Shown piece after piece: positions 15,956 through 46,691 of a stretch of 64,000 nt of DNA (positions are counted from its first letter, which is position 1; each line of letters starts with the position of its first letter). Both the position numbers and the translations under genes were made by a program. The notes under the pieces were generated by a model, which was given only the letters and a program-made list of their open reading frames with translations, was not told the DNA's origin and searched no databases. This stretch comes from an uncultured Eubacteriales bacterium (GTDB lineage: Bacteria > Actinomycetota > Coriobacteriia > Anaerosomatales > JAAXUF01): positions 200,239 through 264,238 of the forward strand of contig CAZFRE010000001.1 in the NCBI GenBank assembly GCA_964521195.1. The letters are read 5' to 3'.

Positions 15956-16756
15956 ATGCGCCATGGGTGGCCGGCCGGTCTCGCGGGAAGGAGCGCCGTG
16001 TCAGTCGTGCAGGACCAAGGAGCCGCACACAGCTGGCCGGTTGAGGGGCTGCCGGCGTTCACCGTGCGGCGGAGCACGCGTGCGAGCAGGGCGCGCATCA
16101 ACGTGACCCCGCACGATGGCGTGGTCGTCGTGGTCCCGGATGCCTGGGAGGAGTTCGACGCCGCTGCAGCGGTCCGCGACCGGCTCGACTGGATCACGGC
16201 CGCCCAGGCTGAGTTCGCGCCGCGCAGGGCGGCGCTCCTCGCGGACGCCGCGGACGTGCTGCCGGTCGCGGTGCAGTTCGCCGCCACGGGCGAGTCTTGG
16301 CCGGTTGTCCGCATCCCGACCTCAGCGTCGAGCGTGCGAGCCGCGACGACGGCCGGGCGCATCGAGCTGCGCGGCGCCGTCGACGACGCCGAGGGGGGAT
16401 TAGCCGCGCTGCGGCGCTGGCTGCATGCCCGCGCTGTCGAACGGCTCGTGCCGGCACTTTCTCAACTCGCCGAGCAGACCGGCGCTCGCCCCGTGGGAGT
16501 CGGGGTCCGCGGCCAACGCGCCCGCTGGGGCGGGTGCTCCGAGCGCGGGTACATCACCCTGAACCGGGCGCTGCTGTTCCTGCCGCCGGATCTCGTGCGC
16601 GCGGTGATGCTCCACGAGCTCGCCCACCTGGCTCACCCCAACCACTCTCGAGCCTTCTGGGACCATCTCGCGGCGATCGACCCGGACGTGACGTCGCACC
16701 GCCTCAGAATCGCGTCGTCTTGGGATCACGTGCCCCCGTGGGCCGATCGCCGGTGA
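15956..16756 (+). CDS. YgjP/DUF45-type (M48-like) zinc metallopeptidase
   Basis: RWGGCSERGYITLNRALLFLPPDLVRAVMLHELAHLAHPNHSRAFWDHL carries the H-E-x-x-H core in DUF45 context. The exact start is uncertain. Confidence 0.75.
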   Translation: MRHGWPAGLAGRSAVSVVQDQGAAHSWPVEGLPAFTVRRSTRASRARINVTPHDGVVVVVPDAWEEFDAAAAVRDRLDWITAAQAEFAPRRAALLADAADVLPVAVQFAATGESWPVVRIPTSASSVRAATTAGRIELRGAVDDAEGGLAALRRWLHARAVERLVPALSQLAEQTGARPVGVGVRGQRARWGGCSERGYITLNRALLFLPPDLVRAVMLHELAHLAHPNHSRAFWDHLAAIDPDVTSHRLRIASSWDHVPPWADRR

Positions 16757-16835: not shown

Positions 16836-17546
16836 ATGATGGCAGTGGACACCGCGGTTCAGGACGCGCGCGAGGAGCGGCAGGTACGTGACGCGTACGG
16901 CGCTACGCTCTTGTTCGTGCTGGCGACGGCGCTCGTACTGATCGCCGCCGGGGCGCCGCTCCCTTCAGGCATCGTCGCTGTGGGTGCGCTGCTTCAGGTT
17001 GGAGCGCTGCTTCTCACCCTGCGCGTGTCGGGCTTCTCTCCTCGCACGCGCACGATCGGGTCCGCAGTCTTCGTGGGTCTGTTCGTGATTGCGGTGGCCG
17101 CCGTGTTCTTGGGCGGCGGGGCCGGCAGGTTGACCGGAATCCTACTGTGGATCGGGCTGACGCTCGTCACGATCATCGCGGTTGTCCGGCGGCTCGCCAC
17201 GTACGAGCGCGTGACCCTGCAACTCGTGATGGGGCTTCTGGTGGTGTACGTGCTGGTCGGCGTCGCATTCGGCCTGACGTACGTCTTCGTGGAGTACCTG
17301 CGTCCCGATGCGTTCACGCAGGGTACGCAGGGTATCTCGGGCGCGGTGTACTTCAGCTTCGTCACGCTGGCGACGCTGGGGTACGGGGACGTGACGCCGG
17401 GCATCGACATCATGCGCGCACTCGCCATCGCCGAGGCCGTCATCGGGCAGCTCTACCTCGTGAGCGTGGTGTCGGTCGCAGCCAGCCGGCTCGGCTCGTT
17501 CCGTGAGCGTGCGAAAGATGTGAGCGTGCCGGCGAAGCAGGACTAG
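16836..17546 (+). CDS. Two-pore-helix potassium channel family protein
   Basis: Selectivity filter FVTLATLGYGDVTP (T-x-G-Y-G-D), flanked by TM helices. Confidence 0.85.
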   Translation: MMAVDTAVQDAREERQVRDAYGATLLFVLATALVLIAAGAPLPSGIVAVGALLQVGALLLTLRVSGFSPRTRTIGSAVFVGLFVIAVAAVFLGGGAGRLTGILLWIGLTLVTIIAVVRRLATYERVTLQLVMGLLVVYVLVGVAFGLTYVFVEYLRPDAFTQGTQGISGAVYFSFVTLATLGYGDVTPGIDIMRALAIAEAVIGQLYLVSVVSVAASRLGSFRERAKDVSVPAKQD

Positions 17547-17574: not shown

Positions 17575-18252
17575 TCACGATCCCGAGCAGCACGAGTGTA
17601 CGGTGTCTCCCTCATCGGCCCCGGAGATCACGGTGGCTGCGAGCGACTTCAGCGCACACGGGATGCGGAAGTAGGTGACCTGCATGCCCTCGGGGTGGAT
17701 CGGTCTGATCCGCGGCGTCAGCATGAGTGCGCCCTTGATGCCCGCGCGGTGGAGCGCATCGAGCGCCTCGTCGATATGCGATGGATCACACGCAACCACG
17801 GCGGTGAGGTTGTCGGCTTCGAATCTCGCGGAAGCGAGCTCGGACAGCGGCCTGACGACGATATCGCCCACGACCTGGCCCGCATCCCCCTCGCATTCCG
17901 AGAAGTACGCGATCGGCACCATCCCGAAGTCCGAAGCGGGGAAGAGCGCAGGCAAAGCCTGAAGCATGGGCAGGCTGCCGACGACGACGAACGGGCTTCG
18001 TTCCGACAGCCCGAGGAACGCGCCAAGTGCCGCATGCAGGTCGCGCGCGACATACCCGGCGCCGGGCCGACCCTTGATGTCCACCCGGCTCAAGTCGGCG
18101 CGAACGCTCTCTTCGCTCAAGCCGAGCTGGGCGGCGATCTCGCGTGAGGTGATGTTCTGCCAGCCGTCAGAGTGCTGAAGCTCCTCGAGAAGGCAGTGGT
18201 AGCGGGCGAGTCTGAGCAACGACAACTGCGACACGGTGGGCTGCTGGGACAC
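17575..18252 (-). CDS. Rex-like transcriptional repressor with a degenerate dinucleotide-binding loop
   Basis: The winged-helix part LLRLARYHCLLEEL..ITSREIAAQLGLSEESVRADLSRV..GAGYVARDL resembles Rex. Where Rex has G-x-G-x-x-G this protein has FVVVGSLPMLQAL. AVVACDP..LHRAGIKGALMLTP is Rex-like. There is an extra Cys-rich tail, HSCCSGS. GAGGAAGGGAG lies upstream of GTG 18252. Confidence 0.7.
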   Translation of the reverse strand: MSQQPTVSQLSLLRLARYHCLLEELQHSDGWQNITSREIAAQLGLSEESVRADLSRVDIKGRPGAGYVARDLHAALGAFLGLSERSPFVVVGSLPMLQALPALFPASDFGMVPIAYFSECEGDAGQVVGDIVVRPLSELASARFEADNLTAVVACDPSHIDEALDALHRAGIKGALMLTPRIRPIHPEGMQVTYFRIPCALKSLAATVISGADEGDTVHSCCSGS

Positions 18253-18790
18253 GCGTACTCCCTTCCTCGGTGCGGCTCCGTTCCGTCCGACGACTACTCT
18301 ACACCTGGCACGTTCGACGCCGGCAGCCGTCCGAGTGAGGAGAGTTCGTTACAAGCTCAACGAACGGGTGTACTATCAGTTCAGAGTTAGAATGCGCGGC
18401 GAGCAAGCGGTGGCCGTGGGACGCGAGGGGCACTGACGCCCGTTCGTGAAGTCGCGGCGGACGACCGGCATGGCAGTGAAGGTCTTCCTGCGCAACACCG
18501 TACCGCGCGTTCTCGGCAAAGCGCCCGGCGCCGTCCCCGCGCTGGGCGGTTTGCTGTCTGCGACACCTCGCTCGCAGGCGCCGGCACGTCGGTTGCGGAC
18601 TTCGACCCGGGTGAAGTACCCGTCCGCCCAGCGCGCGTGGGTGTCGGAGCTCACACATCCTCCACAATCGGAACATTCGACCTTCACCGCGCAGCCACCA
18701 CTGCTTCATCGAAACGCGGGATTATCGTCTTGCGCAAGCGGGTGGGCAGACCCGCGAACCGCGTTGAACAACCTCCTTCACGAGTCACAG

Positions 18791-18820
18791 AGAGACCCGC
18801 CAGCGAGCGGGTCTTTCTGT
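18791..18820 (+). terminator. Plus-strand intrinsic terminator/attenuator hairpin, 64 nt upstream of the PASTA gene
   Basis: AGACCCGC-CAGCGA-GCGGGTCT (8 bp, extendable to 10 with A-U and G-U pairs) followed by TTCTGT. On the minus strand no T-tract follows the hairpin, so the orientation is plus. Confidence 0.5.
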
Positions 18821-18883
18821 GCTCTGGACGCGTCGGGTACGCTGGATACGCACGTGGAACGAGCGTAAGGAAGGTCGCGCAGG

Positions 18884-20449
18884 ATGCCCGACGAGCACAC
18901 GCCCGAACAGGATGCCCAGCCGCTCGAGCGGCAGGCCGACGACGCACGGTCCACGGAGGCGTCCGAGGCGGTCGTCTCGGATGAGGTCGTGAGTGCGTCT
19001 GCGGACGTGCCCGTCGAACCCGCCTCGTCCGAGCAGCCTCAAGCGGTGCCAGCCGTCCCGACGCCCCTCGGGCCGGAGCCGGCGACCGTTCCCGCTGGCT
19101 CGCGGGTGACCCTGATCGTCTCCTCCGGCCCGTCGCCCGCGCCGCCCTCGATCCCCGTCGAGATGCCCGATGTCGTGGGCGAGCAGCAGGGCGCGGCACT
19201 GCTCCGGCTGCAGGCAGCCGGCTTCGGCTCGCGTGTGCTACACGACTACAACGACACGCTGCCCCGAGGCTACGTGACCGGGCAGTATCCGATGCCGGGC
19301 GCGAGTGTCATTCCGGGCTCCGACGCGGTACTCGTCGTGTCGGCGGGCCGAGCGCAGCTGCCGGCGCCCGACGTGATGCTCCCGAGCGCGACCGGGCTCG
19401 ACCAGACGCTCGCCGCCGAGAGACTCATCGCCGCCGGACTCGTTCCGCGCGTCGTCCAGGACTTCGACCCGGTCGCTCAGCCGGGACTCGTGATCGCGCA
19501 GATCCCCAGCGAGGAGGCGCTCTCGACGCCGCTGCATAAGCGGGGGAGCAAGGCATGGCTGGTTGCGGTGGCGGTCCTCGTCACCATCGCCCTGGTGGCC
19601 GGCGTGGTCTGGTACCTGAACCGGCCGACCACGGTCCCAAACCTGATCGGGCTGCCTCAGATGCAGGCCGAGAGCCTTGTGGAGCAGGCAGGGTTTCGTC
19701 TCGGCAGTGTGGCTACGAGTCAGACCACCGACGAGAAGCAGATCGGCAATGTCGTCGGGCAGGCACCCTCGCCCGGGGGCACGGCGGCGCATGGGAGCAC
19801 GCTGAACCTGGTGGTGGCCGGTGGCCAGCTGCTCGCTGCGGTGCCCAACGTGGTCGGCGCTGCGCAGGGTGCGGCCATCAAGAGCCTGCAGGACGCGGGA
19901 TTCGCGTTCGAAGTGAGCCAGTCCTACAGCTCCACCGTACCGTCGGGATCCACCATCGCGCAGGCGCCCACTGCGGGCGAACGTATCCCACCGGGGACCA
20001 CCGTGGGGCTCAACATATCGCTCGGCGCACACACCATCACCGTCCCGAACGTGGTCGGCCAGGTGAAGACCACCGCTGAGACCTCGCTCAAGGGGTCCGG
20101 CCTCGGCGTTGCCACGGCGAGCAACTACGACACCGCGACGCCTGCCGGTCAGGTCATGGCACAGCAACCCACGGTCGGCACCGGCGTCGTGCCCGGCACG
20201 ACGGTGGGACTCACCGTCTCGCTGGGCCCGCCGACCCTCGGCACCGCGACGACCGCGGTGCCCAATGTGGTCGGCAAGACGCAGTCGAAGGCGCAGTCCG
20301 CACTCAAGAAGCGCAATCTCAAGTACCTGGTCGCGCCGCGGCCTGGGTCGGGCAGAGCGAAGGGCGTCGTCGTCGCGCAGCTCCCCGATGTGGGCGCGGT
20401 GATCCCCCGCAATTCGGTTGTGATCATCTTCGTGTCGGACGGCAGCTAG
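18884..20449 (+). CDS. PASTA-repeat membrane protein without a kinase or PBP domain
   Basis: AAGGAAGG lies 9 nt before ATG 18884. The single TM helix is AWLVAVAVLVTIALVAGVVWYL. There are four PASTA units after it (VPNLIGLPQMQAESLVEQAGF.., VPNVVGAAQGAAIKSLQDAGF.., VPNVVGQVKTTAETSLKGSGL.., VPNVVGKTQSKAQSALKKRNL..). About two PASTA-like units precede it (MPDVVGEQQGAALLRLQAAGF..GYVTGQYPMPGASVIPGSDAVLVVSAG; LPSATGLDQTLAAERLIAAGL..). Confidence 0.85.
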   Translation: MPDEHTPEQDAQPLERQADDARSTEASEAVVSDEVVSASADVPVEPASSEQPQAVPAVPTPLGPEPATVPAGSRVTLIVSSGPSPAPPSIPVEMPDVVGEQQGAALLRLQAAGFGSRVLHDYNDTLPRGYVTGQYPMPGASVIPGSDAVLVVSAGRAQLPAPDVMLPSATGLDQTLAAERLIAAGLVPRVVQDFDPVAQPGLVIAQIPSEEALSTPLHKRGSKAWLVAVAVLVTIALVAGVVWYLNRPTTVPNLIGLPQMQAESLVEQAGFRLGSVATSQTTDEKQIGNVVGQAPSPGGTAAHGSTLNLVVAGGQLLAAVPNVVGAAQGAAIKSLQDAGFAFEVSQSYSSTVPSGSTIAQAPTAGERIPPGTTVGLNISLGAHTITVPNVVGQVKTTAETSLKGSGLGVATASNYDTATPAGQVMAQQPTVGTGVVPGTTVGLTVSLGPPTLGTATTAVPNVVGKTQSKAQSALKKRNLKYLVAPRPGSGRAKGVVVAQLPDVGAVIPRNSVVIIFVSDGS

Positions 20450-20477: not shown

Positions 20478-23366
20478 CTACTCGGCTCCGACGATGCTCT
20501 TGATCCTCGAGACCGCCGCCGGCGAGACGCCCGCGCTGGTCGCGGTCACGCGCGTGGTCACAGCGACCTCGTCGTTGGCCTCGTAGTACTCCTCGACCGC
20601 CGAGGCGAGCGACGGAGTGGTCACGAGCGTCAGCCCGCCGACTTCCGCCGATGCCGCAGGCAGGCCGAGAACGGCAGCCCAGCGCGTGCTGTTGGCGAGG
20701 TACACGCGCTCACCCGAGAAGCTCGCCGGCCGAGTGGTGAGAGCCCACGTCGCCAGTCCGGTCGCGATGCCGAGACCCGAGCCGGGTGCGCGCGTCGCGT
20801 GGGGCAGCTGCTCGGCGGCCGCCGCCGAGACCGAGGACGCGCTCCCGACAACGAGGGTGCTCGAGGCGCCGATCGCGGCGAGCGTCGAACGTGTGGCGCT
20901 CGGGACGGCCGACTTCTTGGTGTACAGCAGCGGCCAGCCTTCGCGTGCCGCGACGGAGCTGCCGGCCAGCGCGGCTGTGAAGCTGTCGCCCACGACCACG
21001 GCTCGGCCATCCGCGAGCACGCCGCCCGAGAGCTTCGCGATCTCACGGGCGACAGCGTTCGCCGTCGCGTAGCGGTCGCTTCCGGAGACGCGGGTCACGG
21101 CGTAGCGCCGTGCGAGCGAGCGCCGGAGCGACGTGGACACGTCAGACGAGTCACCGACGATCACGATGCGCGTCACGCCCAGTCGCGCGAGCTCGGTCTT
21201 CGTGGAGGCGGGCAGCGAGTTTCGCGCGCTCACGAGCACGGGCCCGCCCAGCAGGTGGGCGAGTGGCGCCGCCGAGAACGCGTCCACCCACGAGTCGTCT
21301 CCCACGAGCACCGCGACCGTGGCGGTCGCGAACGCCGAACGACTGATCGCGGCCGCATAGCCGTACCGGTCGCTGCCGGTCACCCGCGACACCGTGGGCG
21401 TCGGTCGTACGGTGAATGCCAGCGTCGCGGGCTCGCTTCGCGAACCGTCGCCGTCCAGGACCGTGAGCGATGCGATGTGTGAGCCGAGCGGCAGCGAGGC
21501 GGTACTCGTGGCGCCACCGCTGACCGCTTGTGGCGGCCCGCCGTCGATCGAGAGCAGATCGGTGTGGGCGCGATCCGCCTCGGTACCGCTCCATCGCAGC
21601 TGGCCGTGCGTGTGCGCAAGCGAGGTCACTTCCGGGATCGACACCGAGGGGTAGACGCTGACCGAATCGGAGGAGTTCACATCGGTCCAGTTGTGCGGGC
21701 TCTTCGCCGACACGGTGACCGTGTGACTTCCGGGCGTGGTGTCATAGGGGAGCGTGTAGGTGCGCACGGCCGTGTCGGAGACGACCGTCTTCCCATCGAC
21801 CTCCACATCGTAGGTCACGGCGTCCCCGACGACTCCGGCCCACTCGATGCGCACGTTGCGCGCGTTGTCTTCCGATACAACCGTGATCGCCGGCGCTCCG
21901 AGAAGGGGGTAGTCCTCGATGAGCTTCGCGTAGGCGGCGTCCATGTTGAGAGCACCGTAGCCGTACGCGTCGTCTCGGCCCGATGTTCCAAGATCGTCGG
22001 CGGTCGACCTCACGAGCGCGACGATCTGGGAGTTCGTCATCCACGGCGCGGCCCGCCACAGCCACGCGATCGCGCCGGCGACGACGGGGGATGCCATGCT
22101 GGTCCCATCCCACCAGCGGTATCCCGGCTCGGCGAGGTCGTCCAAGGGGTCCGTGTAGCCCGGCTTGGTCATGCCCCAGATAGAGGAGCCGGGAGCCGAG
22201 AGGTCCAGCGCCGAACCGTAATTGGAGTAGTACGCCCGCTTGCGGTTGCCGCTGGAGTTCAGCGCGAGCGCGCCGACAGCGACCACGTGGTTCATCGCCG
22301 CGGGGTTGGATACCTGCGAGTTCCCCTCGTTGCCGGAGGCGGCGACGATCACGCACCCCTTGTGCCAGGCGTAGTCGATTGCGCTCTGCAGAGCGTCGCT
22401 CGCTGGGCCGCCCGCGATGCTCAGGTTGATGACCTTGCAGCCGTCGTCGGCGGCTTTGTGGATCGCCGAGATGAGCACATCATCGGAGATGCCCGCACCG
22501 CTGTAGACCTTGTACGACGCAACGGTCGTGTCGTTGGCAAGGCCGAGCGAGCCGATGCCGTTGTTGGCGGTGGCGGCGATCTCGCCTGAGACGCAGGTGC
22601 CGTGCGATGTCTGGGCGACGGCATCCGAGTAGCTCTTGGCCCCGACGATGGCCGAGGGGTTCGGCGGCGTGACGTCCGCGCTTCCGGCGACCATATTGGC
22701 GCTGCGGTCCGGATGGTCGAGATACAGGCCCGAGTCGAGAACGGCGACCTTGAAGGCGCTCCCATCGGCGCGCAGCGGGTACTTACCGGTCGTGTCCGCG
22801 CCGGTGTAGCCGGTCTTCCATGCGTTCGGTCCTGCGGGCGAGACGGCCGCGATGCTGCGAAGCCACCACGACTCCGCGTGGGCATAGCGCTCGGCGACTA
22901 CGCCGCCGTACGTCACCGTGAGGGTGCCCGTGTGCCGGTACGCGGGGTCGTCGGGCTCCTCGTACGCCGGCGGCGTGTAGGCGGCAAGCTGCCGGACGTA
23001 GTTGGGCTCGGCGTACTCGATCTTGCCGGTGCGCTCGAGGTCCTCGGCGAACTGGGTCGTGGACTCGCCGGGGGGCACCTCCCACGTCAGGAGGTCGCCT
23101 CGCATCGGCGTCACCGCGCCGGCCGAGCTATCGGTCGCGCGGTAGACCTCGCTGAGCTTGTCGGCCGTGACCGCACCCTTCATCCGAACGATCACGGAGT
23201 CTTCGGCCGGCGTGCCGATGGAGTCAGCCTGCGCCGGGGTGGGAATCGCAAGGGGGTCAGCGGGCAGCACGCGAACGCGGCCGCGCCCGACAGCGGCGGC
23301 GGGCATGGCCGGCGTGAGGAGCGATGCGACGAGAGCGATCGCGAGGATGGGGCGGAGACGGTTCAT
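20478..23366 (-). CDS. Secreted S8 (subtilisin-like) serine protease with three C-terminal CWB2 cell-wall-binding repeats
   Basis: Signal peptide MNRLRPILAIALVASLLTPAMPAAA from ATG 23366. Catalytic triad contexts are VAVLDSGL (Asp), SHGTCVSGEIAA (His) and GTSMASPVVAGA (Ser). There are three GSDRY-type repeats (TGSDRYGYAAAISRSAF.., SGSDRYATANAVAREIA.., third degenerate). Confidence 0.85.
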   Translation of the reverse strand: MNRLRPILAIALVASLLTPAMPAAAVGRGRVRVLPADPLAIPTPAQADSIGTPAEDSVIVRMKGAVTADKLSEVYRATDSSAGAVTPMRGDLLTWEVPPGESTTQFAEDLERTGKIEYAEPNYVRQLAAYTPPAYEEPDDPAYRHTGTLTVTYGGVVAERYAHAESWWLRSIAAVSPAGPNAWKTGYTGADTTGKYPLRADGSAFKVAVLDSGLYLDHPDRSANMVAGSADVTPPNPSAIVGAKSYSDAVAQTSHGTCVSGEIAATANNGIGSLGLANDTTVASYKVYSGAGISDDVLISAIHKAADDGCKVINLSIAGGPASDALQSAIDYAWHKGCVIVAASGNEGNSQVSNPAAMNHVVAVGALALNSSGNRKRAYYSNYGSALDLSAPGSSIWGMTKPGYTDPLDDLAEPGYRWWDGTSMASPVVAGAIAWLWRAAPWMTNSQIVALVRSTADDLGTSGRDDAYGYGALNMDAAYAKLIEDYPLLGAPAITVVSEDNARNVRIEWAGVVGDAVTYDVEVDGKTVVSDTAVRTYTLPYDTTPGSHTVTVSAKSPHNWTDVNSSDSVSVYPSVSIPEVTSLAHTHGQLRWSGTEADRAHTDLLSIDGGPPQAVSGGATSTASLPLGSHIASLTVLDGDGSRSEPATLAFTVRPTPTVSRVTGSDRYGYAAAISRSAFATATVAVLVGDDSWVDAFSAAPLAHLLGGPVLVSARNSLPASTKTELARLGVTRIVIVGDSSDVSTSLRRSLARRYAVTRVSGSDRYATANAVAREIAKLSGGVLADGRAVVVGDSFTAALAGSSVAAREGWPLLYTKKSAVPSATRSTLAAIGASSTLVVGSASSVSAAAAEQLPHATRAPGSGLGIATGLATWALTTRPASFSGERVYLANSTRWAAVLGLPAASAEVGGLTLVTTPSLASAVEEYYEANDEVAVTTRVTATSAGVSPAAVSRIKSIVGAE

Positions 23367-23506
23367 GTGTTCGATGACCTCGGGGCTTGCGGCGGGTTTG
23401 TGTGTCCAGAGTAACGGTCTTGGTGGATGGCGGCATGCGACTGCAGGCGTATCTGCACGTGGTAAGCGCATTCTGTGCCGAACGCGGTCGAAGCGCCTCG
23501 CGCTCC

Positions 23507-23552: not shown

Positions 23553-23628
23553 GGCCAGGTAGCTCAGTTGGTAGAGCAGCGGATTGAAAATCCGCGTGTC
23601 GGCGGTTCAAGTCCGTCTCTGGCCACCA
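23553..23628 (+). tRNA. tRNA-Phe (anticodon GAA), CCA encoded
   Basis: Folds as a cloverleaf: acceptor GGCCAGG/TCTGGCC, D-arm GCTC-AGTTGGTA-GAGC, anticodon arm GCGGA-TTGAAAA-TCCGC, T-arm GGCGG-TTCAAGT-CCGTC, then ACCA. 76 nt. Confidence 0.95.
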
Positions 23629-23787: not shown

Positions 23788-24813
23788 TCAGTCGTCGCAG
23801 CCGGGATAGCCGTCTGCATCTGTGGCGCTGTAGTAAGCAGGAATGAGCACGATTCTGACCGCCAGCAGGTCGCCGTCGGGGGTGTACGTCACGTCGAGTT
23901 CGGTGATGGATGCGCCCTCGGTGAGGTCGTCCTTGTACGGCTCGTGGTCTGAGTACACGCCGGGCGCCCACTCGAACTCCGTCTTCCAGTTGACGAGCAC
24001 CTGGTAGTCGGTGTCGCCGTCGACGGGAACCAGGCCGAGCACGCCGTCGCAGTACCAGTCGACGGTGGCGATCGCAGCATCCGTGGCGGGTGCCGGCAGA
24101 AGCAGGATCTCGGTGGCCAGGACCGTGCCGTCGTCCAGCACCGTGCCGTTGACCTCGTTGACGATCGCGCCGGTGCGCAGGTCCTCGAAGGTCGGAGGCG
24201 TGTCGGAGTCCACGACGTCAGCCCACGCGAGCTCGGTGGTCTCGTCGACCTGGACCTCGTAGACTCGCTCGCTGTCGCAGAGCGCGACGATCGTGAGGAT
24301 GCCGGATTCGGCATCGAACGAGGTCACGAACCCAGCGACCTCCGCGCCGTCCCAGACGCCGTCGTCATCGGAGTCATCGTCCCACGGGTTGCAGCCCTGA
24401 ACGAACTCGGCGAGATTCTCCAAGCCGTCGCAGTCGGCGTCCTCAGCTCCGTCGGCGGTGCCGTCTCGATCGGTATCGGCCTTGCGCGGATGCGTCCTGC
24501 ATGCGCGCTCCTGCACGTTCGCGAGGCGGTCGGAATCGGGATCCTCCTGGCCGTCCTTGATGCCGTCCTTGTCGGTATCGGCCTTGCGCGGGTTGGTCTT
24601 GGCCTTGTACTCGTCGATGTTGCGCAGCCCGTCCTTGTCGGCATCGCCCTTCGCCTGGTTCTTCTTCAGGCTCAGGTGGTACTTCGCCTCCCACTTGTCG
24701 GGGATGCTGTTCTTGTTGCGGTCCTTGGACTTGGCGAATGCCGGCATCGTGCCGAGCAGCAGCATCATGATGATGGCGGTCGCCACCACCGCCAGCCGCG
24801 TACGGGTGTTCAT
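23788..24813 (-). CDS. Secreted protein with thrombospondin-type-3-like Ca-binding Asp repeats
   Basis: GGGGAGGA precedes ATG 24813. Signal peptide MNTRTRLAVVATAIIMMLLLGTMPAFA. Repeats include DADKDGLRNIDEY, NPRKADTDKDGIKDGQEDPDSD, HPRKADTDRDGTADGAEDADCDGLEN and DDDSDDDGVWDG. The C-terminal half is beta-rich. Confidence 0.75.
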   Translation of the reverse strand: MNTRTRLAVVATAIIMMLLLGTMPAFAKSKDRNKNSIPDKWEAKYHLSLKKNQAKGDADKDGLRNIDEYKAKTNPRKADTDKDGIKDGQEDPDSDRLANVQERACRTHPRKADTDRDGTADGAEDADCDGLENLAEFVQGCNPWDDDSDDDGVWDGAEVAGFVTSFDAESGILTIVALCDSERVYEVQVDETTELAWADVVDSDTPPTFEDLRTGAIVNEVNGTVLDDGTVLATEILLLPAPATDAAIATVDWYCDGVLGLVPVDGDTDYQVLVNWKTEFEWAPGVYSDHEPYKDDLTEGASITELDVTYTPDGDLLAVRIVLIPAYYSATDADGYPGCDD

Positions 24814-24980
24814 CGCGTCCTCCCCTGGAATCGATCGAGTCGAGCCCTGCACTCGTCAGGTCGGCGGGGGGATGCTGCGGCTTGAGGCGCCGGGGCGGAT
24901 GCGCGACGAGCGCACGTGACTTCCATCACGCGGGTTTGGTGCGCCCCGTCACGTTCGTGCGGGGCGGCGTACCTTCGCGG

Positions 24981-46617: not shown

Positions 46618-46691
46618 TGGGGCATCGTCTAACGGCAGGACTCGGGATTTTGGTTCCCGCTATCCAGGTTCGAATCCTGGTGCCCCAGCCA
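46618..46691 (+). tRNA. tRNA-Gln (anticodon UUG), CCA encoded
   Basis: Acceptor TGGGGCA/TGCCCCA (U1-A72, G73 as in bacterial tRNA-Gln), anticodon arm CGGGA-TTTTGGT-TCCCG, T-arm CCAGG-TTCGAAT-CCTGG, then GCCA. 74 nt. Confidence 0.9.

What the first reader, a model, noticed from the sequence alone, without database searches (positions are those of the whole stretch)
18884..20449. Stand-alone PASTA protein with PASTA units on both sides of its single TM helix
PASTA domains normally form the extracellular tail of PknB-type kinases or PBP2x-type transpeptidases. This protein has neither catalytic domain. It starts with an acidic, signal-less N-terminus. It carries a PASTA tail fragment (AGSRVTLIVSSGP) plus about two PASTA-like units before the TM helix, and four units after it. 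Positive charges (HKRGSK) precede the helix, which predicts that the N-terminal units are cytoplasmic. That would be unprecedented for PASTA. The alternative is a remnant of a kinase-gene rearrangement, but the upstream 630 bp show no kinase motifs.
Basis: partly seen in the sequence, partly recalled or inferred. Interest (0 to 1): 0.6.

Follow-up and report, generated by a model that had tools for sequence, protein, structure and literature searches.

The report
Kinase-less PASTA protein spanning the membrane
This gene belongs to a conserved, undescribed family of membrane proteins that carry cell-wall-sensing PASTA domains on both sides of one membrane helix, and the inner pair seems to be a rearranged (circularly permuted) double domain in the cytoplasm, where PASTA domains are not known to occur.

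Summary
Window 18884-20449 (+) encodes a 521-aa protein whose only Pfam family is PASTA. It has no kinase or transpeptidase domain, one hydrophobic helix (residues 224-245), a disordered acidic N-terminus and no signal peptide.

It is not a rearrangement remnant. I collected about 127 homologues at 33-70% identity, all from metagenomes or MAGs, mostly Coriobacteriia. They share one architecture: variable tail, orphan "GSRVxLxVSxGP" hairpin, one full PASTA, one PASTA lacking its last 16-17 profile positions, a K/R cluster, the TM helix, then extracellular PASTA units (four in the window protein and in about half of the members counted). The N-terminal units are the most conserved.

New point: the orphan hairpin is exactly the piece the truncated unit lacks. 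Three in-silico tests agree that it completes that unit:
- Joined chimeras give gapless full-length PASTA matches.
- AlphaFold2 loses the hairpin strands when the truncated unit is removed.
- Coupling energies favour cognate pairs as strongly as in the positive control.

The N-in topology is inferred from flank charges, the lack of a signal peptide, PknB homology and composition. It has not been tested experimentally.

Function is unknown. My best guess is a kinase-less transmembrane cell-wall adaptor or sensor. I rate it a new variant of a known kind, interest about 0.6.

The parts
18867..18874 (+). Shine-Dalgarno-like AAGGAAGG, 9 nt before the ATG. It overlaps the in-frame stop TAA (18866-18868) that closes the upstream reading frame.
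   Evidence: Read from the sequence. In-frame upstream translation.
18884..20449 (+). Coding sequence of the 521-aa kinase-less PASTA protein (stop codon included).
   Evidence: An identical protein, P0001, is in the NCBI-derived collection. There are about 127 homologues with the same architecture.
18884..19072 (+). Residues 1-63: acidic, Pro/Ala-rich, disordered N-terminal tail with no hydrophobic segment. It begins with the motif M-P-D-E-H-T-P, which is conserved in close relatives (MSDEHTP, MTDEFTP and similar).
   Evidence: AlphaFold2 pLDDT is below 50 for residues 1-54. Tail length ranges from 12 to 199 aa in the family, and no member has a hydrophobic stretch there. Tail composition is P 19%, A 17%, E 12%, D 8%.
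19079..19132 (+). Residues 66-83: orphan beta3'-beta4 hairpin (PATVPAGSRVTLIVSSGP). It corresponds to the last 16-17 positions of the 64-position PASTA profile and is proposed to complete the truncated second unit.
   Evidence: G72, S80 and G82 are invariant in 45 sequences. Strands E68-70 and E74-80 have pLDDT 94 in the full-length model. The strands are lost and pLDDT falls to 72-81 when the truncated unit is left out. Chimera and coupling tests. The segment aligns to the last strand of a PknB PASTA unit.
19154..19351 (+). Residues 91-156: N-terminal PASTA unit 1, complete.
   Evidence: Pfam PASTA 45.8 bits, profile 1-63 of 64. pLDDT 90-96. Mean identity across the family 51%.
19361..19513 (+). 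Residues 160-210: N-terminal PASTA unit 2, lacking the last hairpin (beta1-alpha-beta2-beta3 only).
   Evidence: Pfam PASTA 22 bits, profile 2-48 of 64. The truncation falls at the same profile position in 5 of 5 diverse members. pLDDT 90-97.
19535..19552 (+). Residues 218-223: the juxtamembrane positive cluster HKRGSK.
   Evidence: Read from the sequence. Family-wide flank charges: K+R 3.0 on the N side, 1.2 on the C side.
19553..19618 (+). Residues 224-245: the single transmembrane helix (AWLVAVAVLVTIALVAGVVWYL).
   Evidence: Kyte-Doolittle maximum 2.75, and it is the only segment above 1.9. Helix 224-245 in the model. The distance from hairpin to helix is 147-158 aa in all 83 members.
19625..19825 (+). 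Residues 248-314: extracellular PASTA unit E1.
   Evidence: Pfam 44.1 bits. Model and Foldseek matches to PknB and PrkC PASTA arrays.
19835..20026 (+). Residues 318-381: extracellular PASTA unit E2.
   Evidence: Pfam 51.6 bits..
20036..20227 (+). Residues 385-448: extracellular PASTA unit E3.
   Evidence: Pfam 46.7 bits..
20249..20443 (+). Residues 456-520: extracellular PASTA unit E4.
   Evidence: Pfam 46.8 bits..

Best explanation
The gene encodes a member of a conserved, so far unnamed family of bitopic, kinase-less PASTA membrane proteins. The family is found in uncultured Coriobacteriia and other Actinomycetota-like lineages.

Shown by computation:
- The protein consists of a disordered acidic tail, an orphan beta-hairpin, one complete PASTA unit, one PASTA unit lacking exactly that hairpin, a K/R cluster, one TM helix and four PASTA units.
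- This layout is conserved across about 127 homologues.

Inferred, with three concordant in-silico tests:
- The N-terminal hairpin docks into the truncated unit. The N-terminal module is therefore a circularly permuted double PASTA, closed on itself, and it sits directly on the membrane anchor.

Inferred from topology rules and homology:
- The N-terminal module is cytoplasmic.
- The C-terminal array is outside, as in PknB-type kinases.

Inferred function (weakest step):
- The outer array binds peptidoglycan precursors or fragments, as PknB/PrkC PASTA arrays do. This localises or switches the protein.
- The inner permuted module and the tail, in place of a kinase domain, pass this on by binding a cytoplasmic partner or ligand.
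- In short, it would be a non-enzymatic transmembrane cell-wall adaptor or sensor, possibly one that modulates a PASTA kinase.
For: Architecture and reality of the gene.

Family conservation:
- Full-length homologues at 50-70% identity.
- Dozens of 50%-identity clusters have the N-module at their N-terminus.
- 83 and then 128 sequences passed the hairpin-plus-helix filter (one, P0221, a probable false positive). The hairpin-to-TM spacing is 147-158 aa, with no earlier hydrophobic segment and no kinase motif.
- 13 of the 22 invariant columns lie in the N-module.
- Between-protein identity per unit class: PASTA1 51%, permuted unit 52%, extracellular units 43-49%.

Permutation:
- The truncated unit ends at profile position 47-48 of 64 in 5 of 5 members. 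Appending the member's own hairpin gives a gapless match to profile 1-64 and raises the score to 38-48 bits.
- AlphaFold2 full-length: the hairpin forms strands at pLDDT 94.
- AlphaFold2 without the truncated unit: no strands, pLDDT 72-81, while PASTA1 stays at about 95.
- Couplings were learned from 1535 canonical PASTA units. Cognate truncated-unit x hairpin pairs beat shuffled partners (permutation z 5.5), like the positive control (z 6.1). The negative controls gave z -3.7 and 1.8.

Topology:
- Flank K+R are 3.0 versus 1.2, and the N side is higher in 67 of 83 members.
- The TM helix plus C-terminal array match the TM-PASTA part of NF033483 PknB_PASTA_kin, and PknB/PrkC ectodomain structures.
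- The two sets of units differ in composition as cytoplasmic and secreted domains usually do: R x2.15, H x5.8, L x1.5; T x0.46, K x0.44, N x0.57.

The PknB PASTA array is reported to bind muropeptide and lipid II (PMC6428115).
Against:
- I could not inspect model coordinates or PAE. The docking partner of the hairpin is inferred indirectly, and intra- versus intermolecular docking is not resolved.
- The coupling test ignores phylogeny except through its controls.
- Gene neighbourhood gives no functional link. The gene is monocistronic. Only a convergent S8 peptidase with cell-wall-binding repeats is conserved, and only in close relatives.
- No PASTA kinase lies in the 64-kb window. Whether the genome has one is unknown.
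- Ligand binding by any of the six units is untested.
Confidence: 0.6

Rival explanations
1. The hairpin completes the truncated unit in trans. The N-terminal hairpin of one protomer inserts into the incomplete PASTA of another, giving head-to-tail dimers or chains under the membrane. Oligomerisation, rather than a closed monomeric module, would then be the signalling principle.
For: The profile complementarity and the coupling signal fit docking in cis and in trans equally well. PASTA kinases are thought to signal through dimerisation (established knowledge). The linkers of 9-11 residues allow either arrangement.
Against: The monomer AlphaFold2 model places the hairpin in strands at pLDDT 94 without a second chain. 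No multimer prediction could be run.
Confidence: 0.2
2. The hairpin is only a vestige of a third, decayed PASTA unit, and the truncated unit is stable on its own. There is no permutation. The N-terminal part is simply a degenerate PASTA array.
For: The region before the hairpin is variable and disordered, as expected if an older unit decayed. The hairpin keeps moderate pLDDT (72-81) without the truncated unit.
Against: The hairpin is among the most conserved segments: G72, S80 and G82 are invariant. It loses all strand assignment when the truncated unit is removed. The cognate coupling signal equals the positive control. The truncation point and the hairpin start meet at the same profile position in all members tested.
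Confidence: 0.1
3. The topology is the other way round or otherwise unusual. The N-terminal module would be exported and the C-terminal array would be inside, or the hydrophobic segment would not span the membrane.
For: No experimental topology exists. In 2 of 83 members the C-side flank carries more K+R, and in 14 the flanks are equal.
Against: None of 83 members has a signal peptide or hydrophobic segment before the module. An N-terminal region of about 165-350 residues (about 220 in this protein), part of it folded, cannot normally be exported without one (established knowledge). The positive-inside bias is 3.0 versus 1.2. The TM helix plus C-array are homologous to the TM plus ectodomain of PknB kinases. 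Composition fits an N-in orientation. With a single span, PASTA units would still lie on both sides.
Confidence: 0.06
4. The gene is a remnant of a rearranged kinase or PBP gene, or a pseudogene, or an assembly artefact, with no function of its own.
For: There is no catalytic domain. A 630-bp gene-poor stretch lies upstream. The closest genome-collection relative (L007) has frameshifts in its copy.
Against: The reading frame is intact and has a Shine-Dalgarno sequence. About 127 homologues share the same layout at 33-70% identity, from many samples and from contigs up to 2.5 Mb. The N-terminal units are the most conserved. No kinase fragment occurs anywhere in the window. L007 is an 'MFD' MAG with frameshifts at both ends of the gene, which looks like assembly indel error (my inference).
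Confidence: 0.02

Closest known systems
PknB / PrkC / StkP / Stk1-type PASTA Ser/Thr kinases (NCBIfam NF033483)
   Same: Both are bitopic, with a K/R-rich juxtamembrane segment, one TM helix and an extracellular array of PASTA units. Residues 218-446 match profile positions 328-563 of NF033483. The best structural matches are the PrkC and PknB ectodomains: 3PY9, 5E12, 2KUI.
   Different: There is no kinase domain (201 bits against a cutoff of 450; no Pkinase hit; no kinase motif in about 127 relatives). A permuted double PASTA and a disordered tail occupy the cytoplasmic side in its place.
PASTA-bearing penicillin-binding proteins (PBP2x, SpoVD, S. aureus PBP1, M. tuberculosis PonA2)
   Same: They share the PASTA fold (Foldseek hits 7O4C, 2Z2L, 2MGV). 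In PBP2x the two PASTA units pack compactly rather than in a line (established knowledge), as a closed double module would.
   Different: There is no transpeptidase or transglycosylase domain (TIGR02214 16.5 bits against a cutoff of 688). In PBPs all PASTA units are extracytoplasmic and C-terminal.
Database entries named 'PASTA domain-containing protein' or 'beta-lactam-binding protein with PASTA domain' (uncharacterised stand-alone PASTA proteins)
   Same: Relatives of this protein already carry these automatic names. PASTA is their only recognised domain.
   Different: Most other stand-alone PASTA proteins seen here have an N-terminal signal or anchor followed by PASTA units on one side only (for example P0054, P0070, P0227). 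Only this family has units before the helix, together with the orphan hairpin and the truncated unit.
Circular permutation by duplication and end-trimming in tandem-repeat domains (general mechanism)
   Same: The layout [last hairpin of unit a]-[unit b]-[unit c without its last hairpin] is what results from cutting a three-unit tandem array inside units a and c. The two fragments can then form one domain.
   Different: No permuted PASTA was found in the literature searched. Here the permutation spans a whole intervening domain, so it closes a two-domain module rather than re-ordering a single domain.

Membership tests
PASTA domain (Pfam PF03793) | Match to the PASTA profile above the gathering score | tested here: met
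   The whole protein scores 212.9 bits against a cutoff of 23.2. Five units score 44-52 bits each. The truncated unit alone scores 22 bits, and 39.5 bits once its hairpin is appended.
PASTA domain (Pfam PF03793) | beta1-alpha-beta2-beta3-beta4 fold as in PknB and PBP2x | tested here: met
   The AlphaFold2 secondary structure repeats this pattern in every unit at pLDDT above 90. Foldseek matches 3OUV (PknB PASTA3) with target TM-score 0.89 and rmsd 1.1 A, and PrkC at E 3.7e-16.
PASTA domain (Pfam PF03793) | Extracytoplasmic location (true of all characterised PASTA domains, from established knowledge) | not testable with these tools
   The prediction is 'met' for the four C-terminal units and 'not met' for the two N-terminal units. 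It rests on flank charges, the lack of a signal peptide, homology and composition. It needs reporter fusions.
PASTA domain (Pfam PF03793) | Binding of muropeptide, lipid II or beta-lactam | not testable with these tools
   No binding prediction was attempted. Even among known PASTA domains some do not bind, such as PonA2 (stated in PMC6273383).
Stk1/PknB family PASTA kinase (NCBIfam NF033483) | N-terminal Hanks-type kinase domain | tested here: not met
   Only profile positions 328-563 match, and 201.2 bits falls below the cutoff of 450. There is no Pkinase hit. tblastn with 7 PASTA kinases finds no kinase segment in the 64-kb window.
Stk1/PknB family PASTA kinase (NCBIfam NF033483) | Single TM helix followed by an extracellular PASTA array | tested here: met
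Class B PBP with PASTA (PBP2x / SpoVD, TIGR02214) | Transpeptidase domain with PASTA units at its C-terminus | tested here: not met
   TIGR02214 scores 16.5 bits against a cutoff of 688, over one PASTA unit only. Pfam finds no transpeptidase domain.
Proposed new family: hairpin-PASTA-truncated PASTA-TM-PASTA array | Orphan hairpin G-S-R-V-x-L-x-V-S-x-G-P 147-158 residues before a single TM helix, with no earlier hydrophobic segment | tested here: met
   In the window protein the hairpin starts at residue 72 and the TM helix at 224, a distance of 152. The same holds in 83 and then about 127 relatives.
Proposed new family: hairpin-PASTA-truncated PASTA-TM-PASTA array | The hairpin structurally completes the truncated unit (circular permutation) | tested here: met
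   This is in silico only: chimera profile match, AlphaFold2 with and without the truncated unit and coupling energies with controls. Coordinates could not be inspected, and no experiment exists.

The most novel reading that the evidence does not exclude
The protein reads the same class of ligand on both faces of the membrane. The outer PASTA array would bind flipped lipid II or muropeptides. The inner, permuted PASTA module would bind the stem peptide of cytoplasmic precursors (UDP-MurNAc-pentapeptide, lipid I, or lipid II before flipping). The protein could then compare or couple precursor supply inside with consumption outside, for example to tune flipping or a PASTA kinase, without any enzymatic domain of its own.
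Probability: 0.1. Interest if true: 0.85.

Novelty: new variant of a known kind. Interest (0 to 1): 0.6.

Why it matters
PASTA domains are the textbook extracellular sensors of Gram-positive cell-wall growth, and until now they have always been tied to a kinase or a penicillin-binding protein.

A conserved family that keeps the sensor array but drops the enzyme raises two testable questions:
- Can the PASTA fold work inside the cell, and on what ligand or partner?
- How can a wall signal cross the membrane without a kinase?

The apparent permutation, in which a terminal hairpin closes a two-domain module, is also a clean natural example of how tandem repeats can be re-cut into a new architecture.

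The practical limit is that all carriers found so far are uncultured organisms.

Tried and rejected
- The look-up of encoding contigs found nothing on record for the window protein, for its exact copy P0001, or for the paralogue P0332. The source assembly was therefore not identified.
With a narrower one it found only two uncultured Coriobacteriia MAGs, so no cultured carrier was found.
- Gene-neighbourhood comparison in six relatives showed no conserved operon partner.
- The Rfam scan of the window found only two tRNAs and nothing upstream of the gene.
- The promoter/terminator scan gave nothing usable.
- The afdb50 fold library was not available.
- Literature searches for cytoplasmic, stand-alone or permuted PASTA returned nothing relevant.
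- I considered and rejected a recent internal duplication as the origin of the N-terminal units. Same-protein identity between unit classes equals cross-protein identity (29-39%).
- I considered a hidden kinase fragment upstream and rejected it.
Full report
**1. Checking the observation**

The ORF at 18884..20449 (+) exists and encodes 521 aa. An AAGGAAGG Shine-Dalgarno sequence lies 9 nt before the ATG. An in-frame TAA at 18866-18868 closes the frame upstream, so there is no longer exported form.

Pfam finds only PASTA (212.9 bits, six stretches). NCBIfam finds only the TM-plus-PASTA half of the PknB kinase model: profile positions 328-563, 201 bits against a cutoff of 450. It also gives a negligible SpoVD hit.

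Scored piece by piece:

| Residues | Pfam PASTA result |
|---|---|
| 1-89 | no hit |
| ~93-155 | complete unit, 45.8 bits |
| ~165-211 | truncated unit, profile 2-48 of 64, 22 bits |
| four units after the helix | 44.1, 51.6, 46.7, 46.8 bits |

Only one hydrophobic helix exists (224-245), preceded by HKRGSK. Seven PASTA kinases used as tblastn queries hit nothing but the PASTA region in the whole 64-kb window.

**2. A conserved family, not a remnant**

A search of 5.8 billion proteins returned an identical NCBI protein and many full-length homologues. These are 490-560 aa, 50-70% identical and PASTA-only. The few with source names are called 'PASTA domain-containing protein [Coriobacteriia bacterium]'.

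An exhaustive HMMER search with residues 60-250 found dozens of 50%-identity clusters of 416-686 aa proteins (mostly about 460-520 aa). In each, the query module aligns end to end at the N-terminus of the target.

A simple filter asked for a hairpin motif followed 140-165 residues (140-160 in the later run) later by a hydrophobic helix. It collected 83 and then 128 sequences (one, P0221, a probable false positive). The hairpin-to-helix distance is 147-158 residues in all of the first 83. None has a hydrophobic segment before the hairpin, and none has a kinase motif.

All are from metagenomes or MAGs. The names seen are Coriobacteriia, Actinomycetia/Actinomycetes and Candidatus Limnocylindrales.

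In a 45-sequence alignment, 13 of the 22 invariant columns lie in the N-terminal module. Each unit class is conserved between proteins: PASTA1 51%, second N-terminal unit 52%, extracellular units 43-49%. Identity between classes is 29-39%, whether compared within one protein or between proteins. The layout is therefore old, under purifying selection, and not the product of a recent internal duplication or rearrangement.

**3. The new structural point: a circularly permuted double PASTA**

The fragment before the first unit (PATVPAGSRVTLIVSSGP, residues 66-83) matches the last 16-17 positions of the 64-position PASTA profile. It aligns with the last strand of a PknB PASTA unit. The second unit stops at profile position 47-48, exactly where the fragment begins. 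Three independent tests support that the fragment completes the truncated unit.

- **(a) Chimeras.** In five diverse members, appending the member's own hairpin to its truncated unit gives a gapless match to profile 1-64 at 38-48 bits. That is the range of native units.
- **(b) AlphaFold2 with and without the truncated unit.** With a 45-sequence alignment, the full-length model puts the hairpin in strands (E68-70, E74-80) at pLDDT 94, and the truncated unit at 90-97. A second run contained only the hairpin and unit 1 (residues 55-159). There the hairpin loses every strand assignment and drops to pLDDT 72-81, while unit 1 stays at about 95. The strand partner is therefore not unit 1.
- **(c) Couplings.** I built a mean-field coupling model from 1535 canonical PASTA units taken from the proteins fetched here, leaving out the family's N-terminal units. 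It recovers strong couplings between the domain core and the last hairpin. I then scored core x tail energies across 83 members:

| Pairing | Role | Permutation z |
|---|---|---|
| truncated unit x own hairpin | test | 5.5 |
| unit 1 core x own tail | positive control | 6.1 |
| unit 1 core x hairpin | negative control | -3.7 |
| truncated unit x unit 1 tail | negative control | 1.8 |

The N-terminal module therefore reads as [beta3'-beta4 of unit 2]-[unit 1]-[beta1-alpha-beta2-beta3 of unit 2]. This is what results from cutting a three-unit tandem array inside its outer units.

Caveats: I could not see coordinates or PAE, and docking in trans between protomers fits tests (a) and (c) equally well.

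**4. Topology**

The evidence for N-in/C-out is indirect but consistent.

- There is no signal peptide or hydrophobic stretch in tails of 12-199 residues.
- K+R in the 15-residue flanks average 3.0 on the N side and 1.2 on the C side. The N side is higher in 67 of 83 members and lower in 2.
- The helix and C-terminal array are homologous to the TM-ectodomain part of PknB kinases.
- The two sets of units differ in composition in the direction usual for cytoplasmic versus secreted domains. The N-module has R x2.15, H x5.8 and L x1.5, and T x0.46, K x0.44 and N x0.57. The interpretation of that trend rests on general knowledge.

With one span, PASTA units lie on both sides whichever way the protein is oriented.

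**5. Context**

The gene is monocistronic. In close relatives it is convergent with the same S8 peptidase carrying CWB2 cell-wall-binding repeats, and it lies near Rex and 2-oxoacid:ferredoxin oxidoreductase genes. In distant relatives the neighbours are unrelated. Nothing links it to a kinase, phosphatase, PBP or SEDS gene.

The source genome probably has a second, 33%-identical paralogue with the same layout. This is P0332, from a contig of the same length as the one carrying the exact copy of the window protein. It is not in the window.

**6. How it probably works**

Shown: the architecture, its conservation and the PASTA fold of all units.

Inferred: the closed permuted module, its cytoplasmic location, and that the outer array behaves like the homologous PknB/PrkC arrays, which bind muropeptide and lipid II (PMC6428115).

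Speculative: where a kinase would normally sit, the inner module and the tail relay wall status by binding a partner or a ligand. The tail starts with a conserved MxDEHTP motif in the closer relatives. The protein may also act as a kinase-less competitor or co-receptor of a PASTA kinase.

**7. Comparison and novelty**

The closest known systems are the PASTA kinases, which have the same outer half but a kinase inside, and the PASTA-bearing PBPs. The protein fails the defining catalytic-domain feature of both.

Automatic annotations already call its relatives 'PASTA domain-containing protein'. The literature I could search describes PASTA domains only as extracytoplasmic parts of PBPs and kinases (for example PMC6273383, PMC6428115). 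Nothing turned up on cytoplasmic or permuted PASTA, though the library covers open-access papers only.

I rate it a new variant of a known kind, with interest about 0.6. The cytoplasmic PASTA module and the permutation would surprise specialists, but topology and function are still predictions and all known carriers are uncultured.

Noticed in passing
not in the window; protein P0332: A 515-aa paralogue, 33% identical and with the same hairpin-PASTA-truncated PASTA-TM-PASTA layout, comes from an NCBI contig of 663,358 bp. That is the contig length recorded for the exact copy of the window protein. The source genome therefore probably carries at least two members of the family.
   Followed up: partly
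window 20478-23471 (-): A 997-aa S8 subtilase with a signal-like N-terminus and CWB2 cell-wall-binding repeats lies convergent with the PASTA gene, 28 bp away. The pairing is conserved in the closer relatives (L001, L003, L007) but not in distant ones.
   Followed up: partly
window 18788-18819 (+): A 13-bp perfect or G-U palindrome (CAGAGAGACCCGC-CAGCGA-GCGGGTCTTTCTG) lies about 65 bp upstream of the start codon. It is conserved with one stem change in the closest relative, L007. It could be an operator, or a terminator of upstream transcription.
   Followed up: partly
window 18376-18687 (-): A small ORF starts MKVECSDCGGCV. Its first ~12 codons are conserved at the DNA level in L007 (MDIECVGCGEDV), where the frame runs into a lipoprotein-like sequence. 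Pfam gives no hit for the window ORF. The rest of the 630-bp gap is not conserved.
   Followed up: partly
L007 5820-7512: The orthologue in the closest genome-collection MAG (MFD04716.bin.2.226) is split by frameshifts near the hairpin and near the C-terminus. These are probably assembly indel errors rather than a pseudogene.
   Followed up: no
window 17575-18252 (-), 16836-17546 (+), 15956-16756 (+): The upstream neighbours are a Rex-like repressor (Put_DNA-bind_N), a two-TM-type potassium-channel-like protein (Ion_trans_2) and a YgjP-like metallopeptidase. In relatives, cupredoxin and TPP-enzyme genes sit between Rex and the PASTA gene. They are missing here.
   Followed up: partly
window 23553-23625 (+) and 46618-46688 (+): Two tRNA genes are the only Rfam matches in the window.
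   Followed up: no
window 23788-24852 (-): A 354-aa secreted-looking protein carries Asp-rich, calcium-binding-like repeats (DKDG..D.D.DG). Its only Pfam hit is DUF5666, below the cutoff.
   Followed up: no
proteins P0121-P0136 and others: The representative library holds giant proteins of 2000-3500 aa with 13-28 PASTA-matching stretches each. PASTA arrays therefore reach far beyond the 1-5 units of kinases and PBPs.
   Followed up: no
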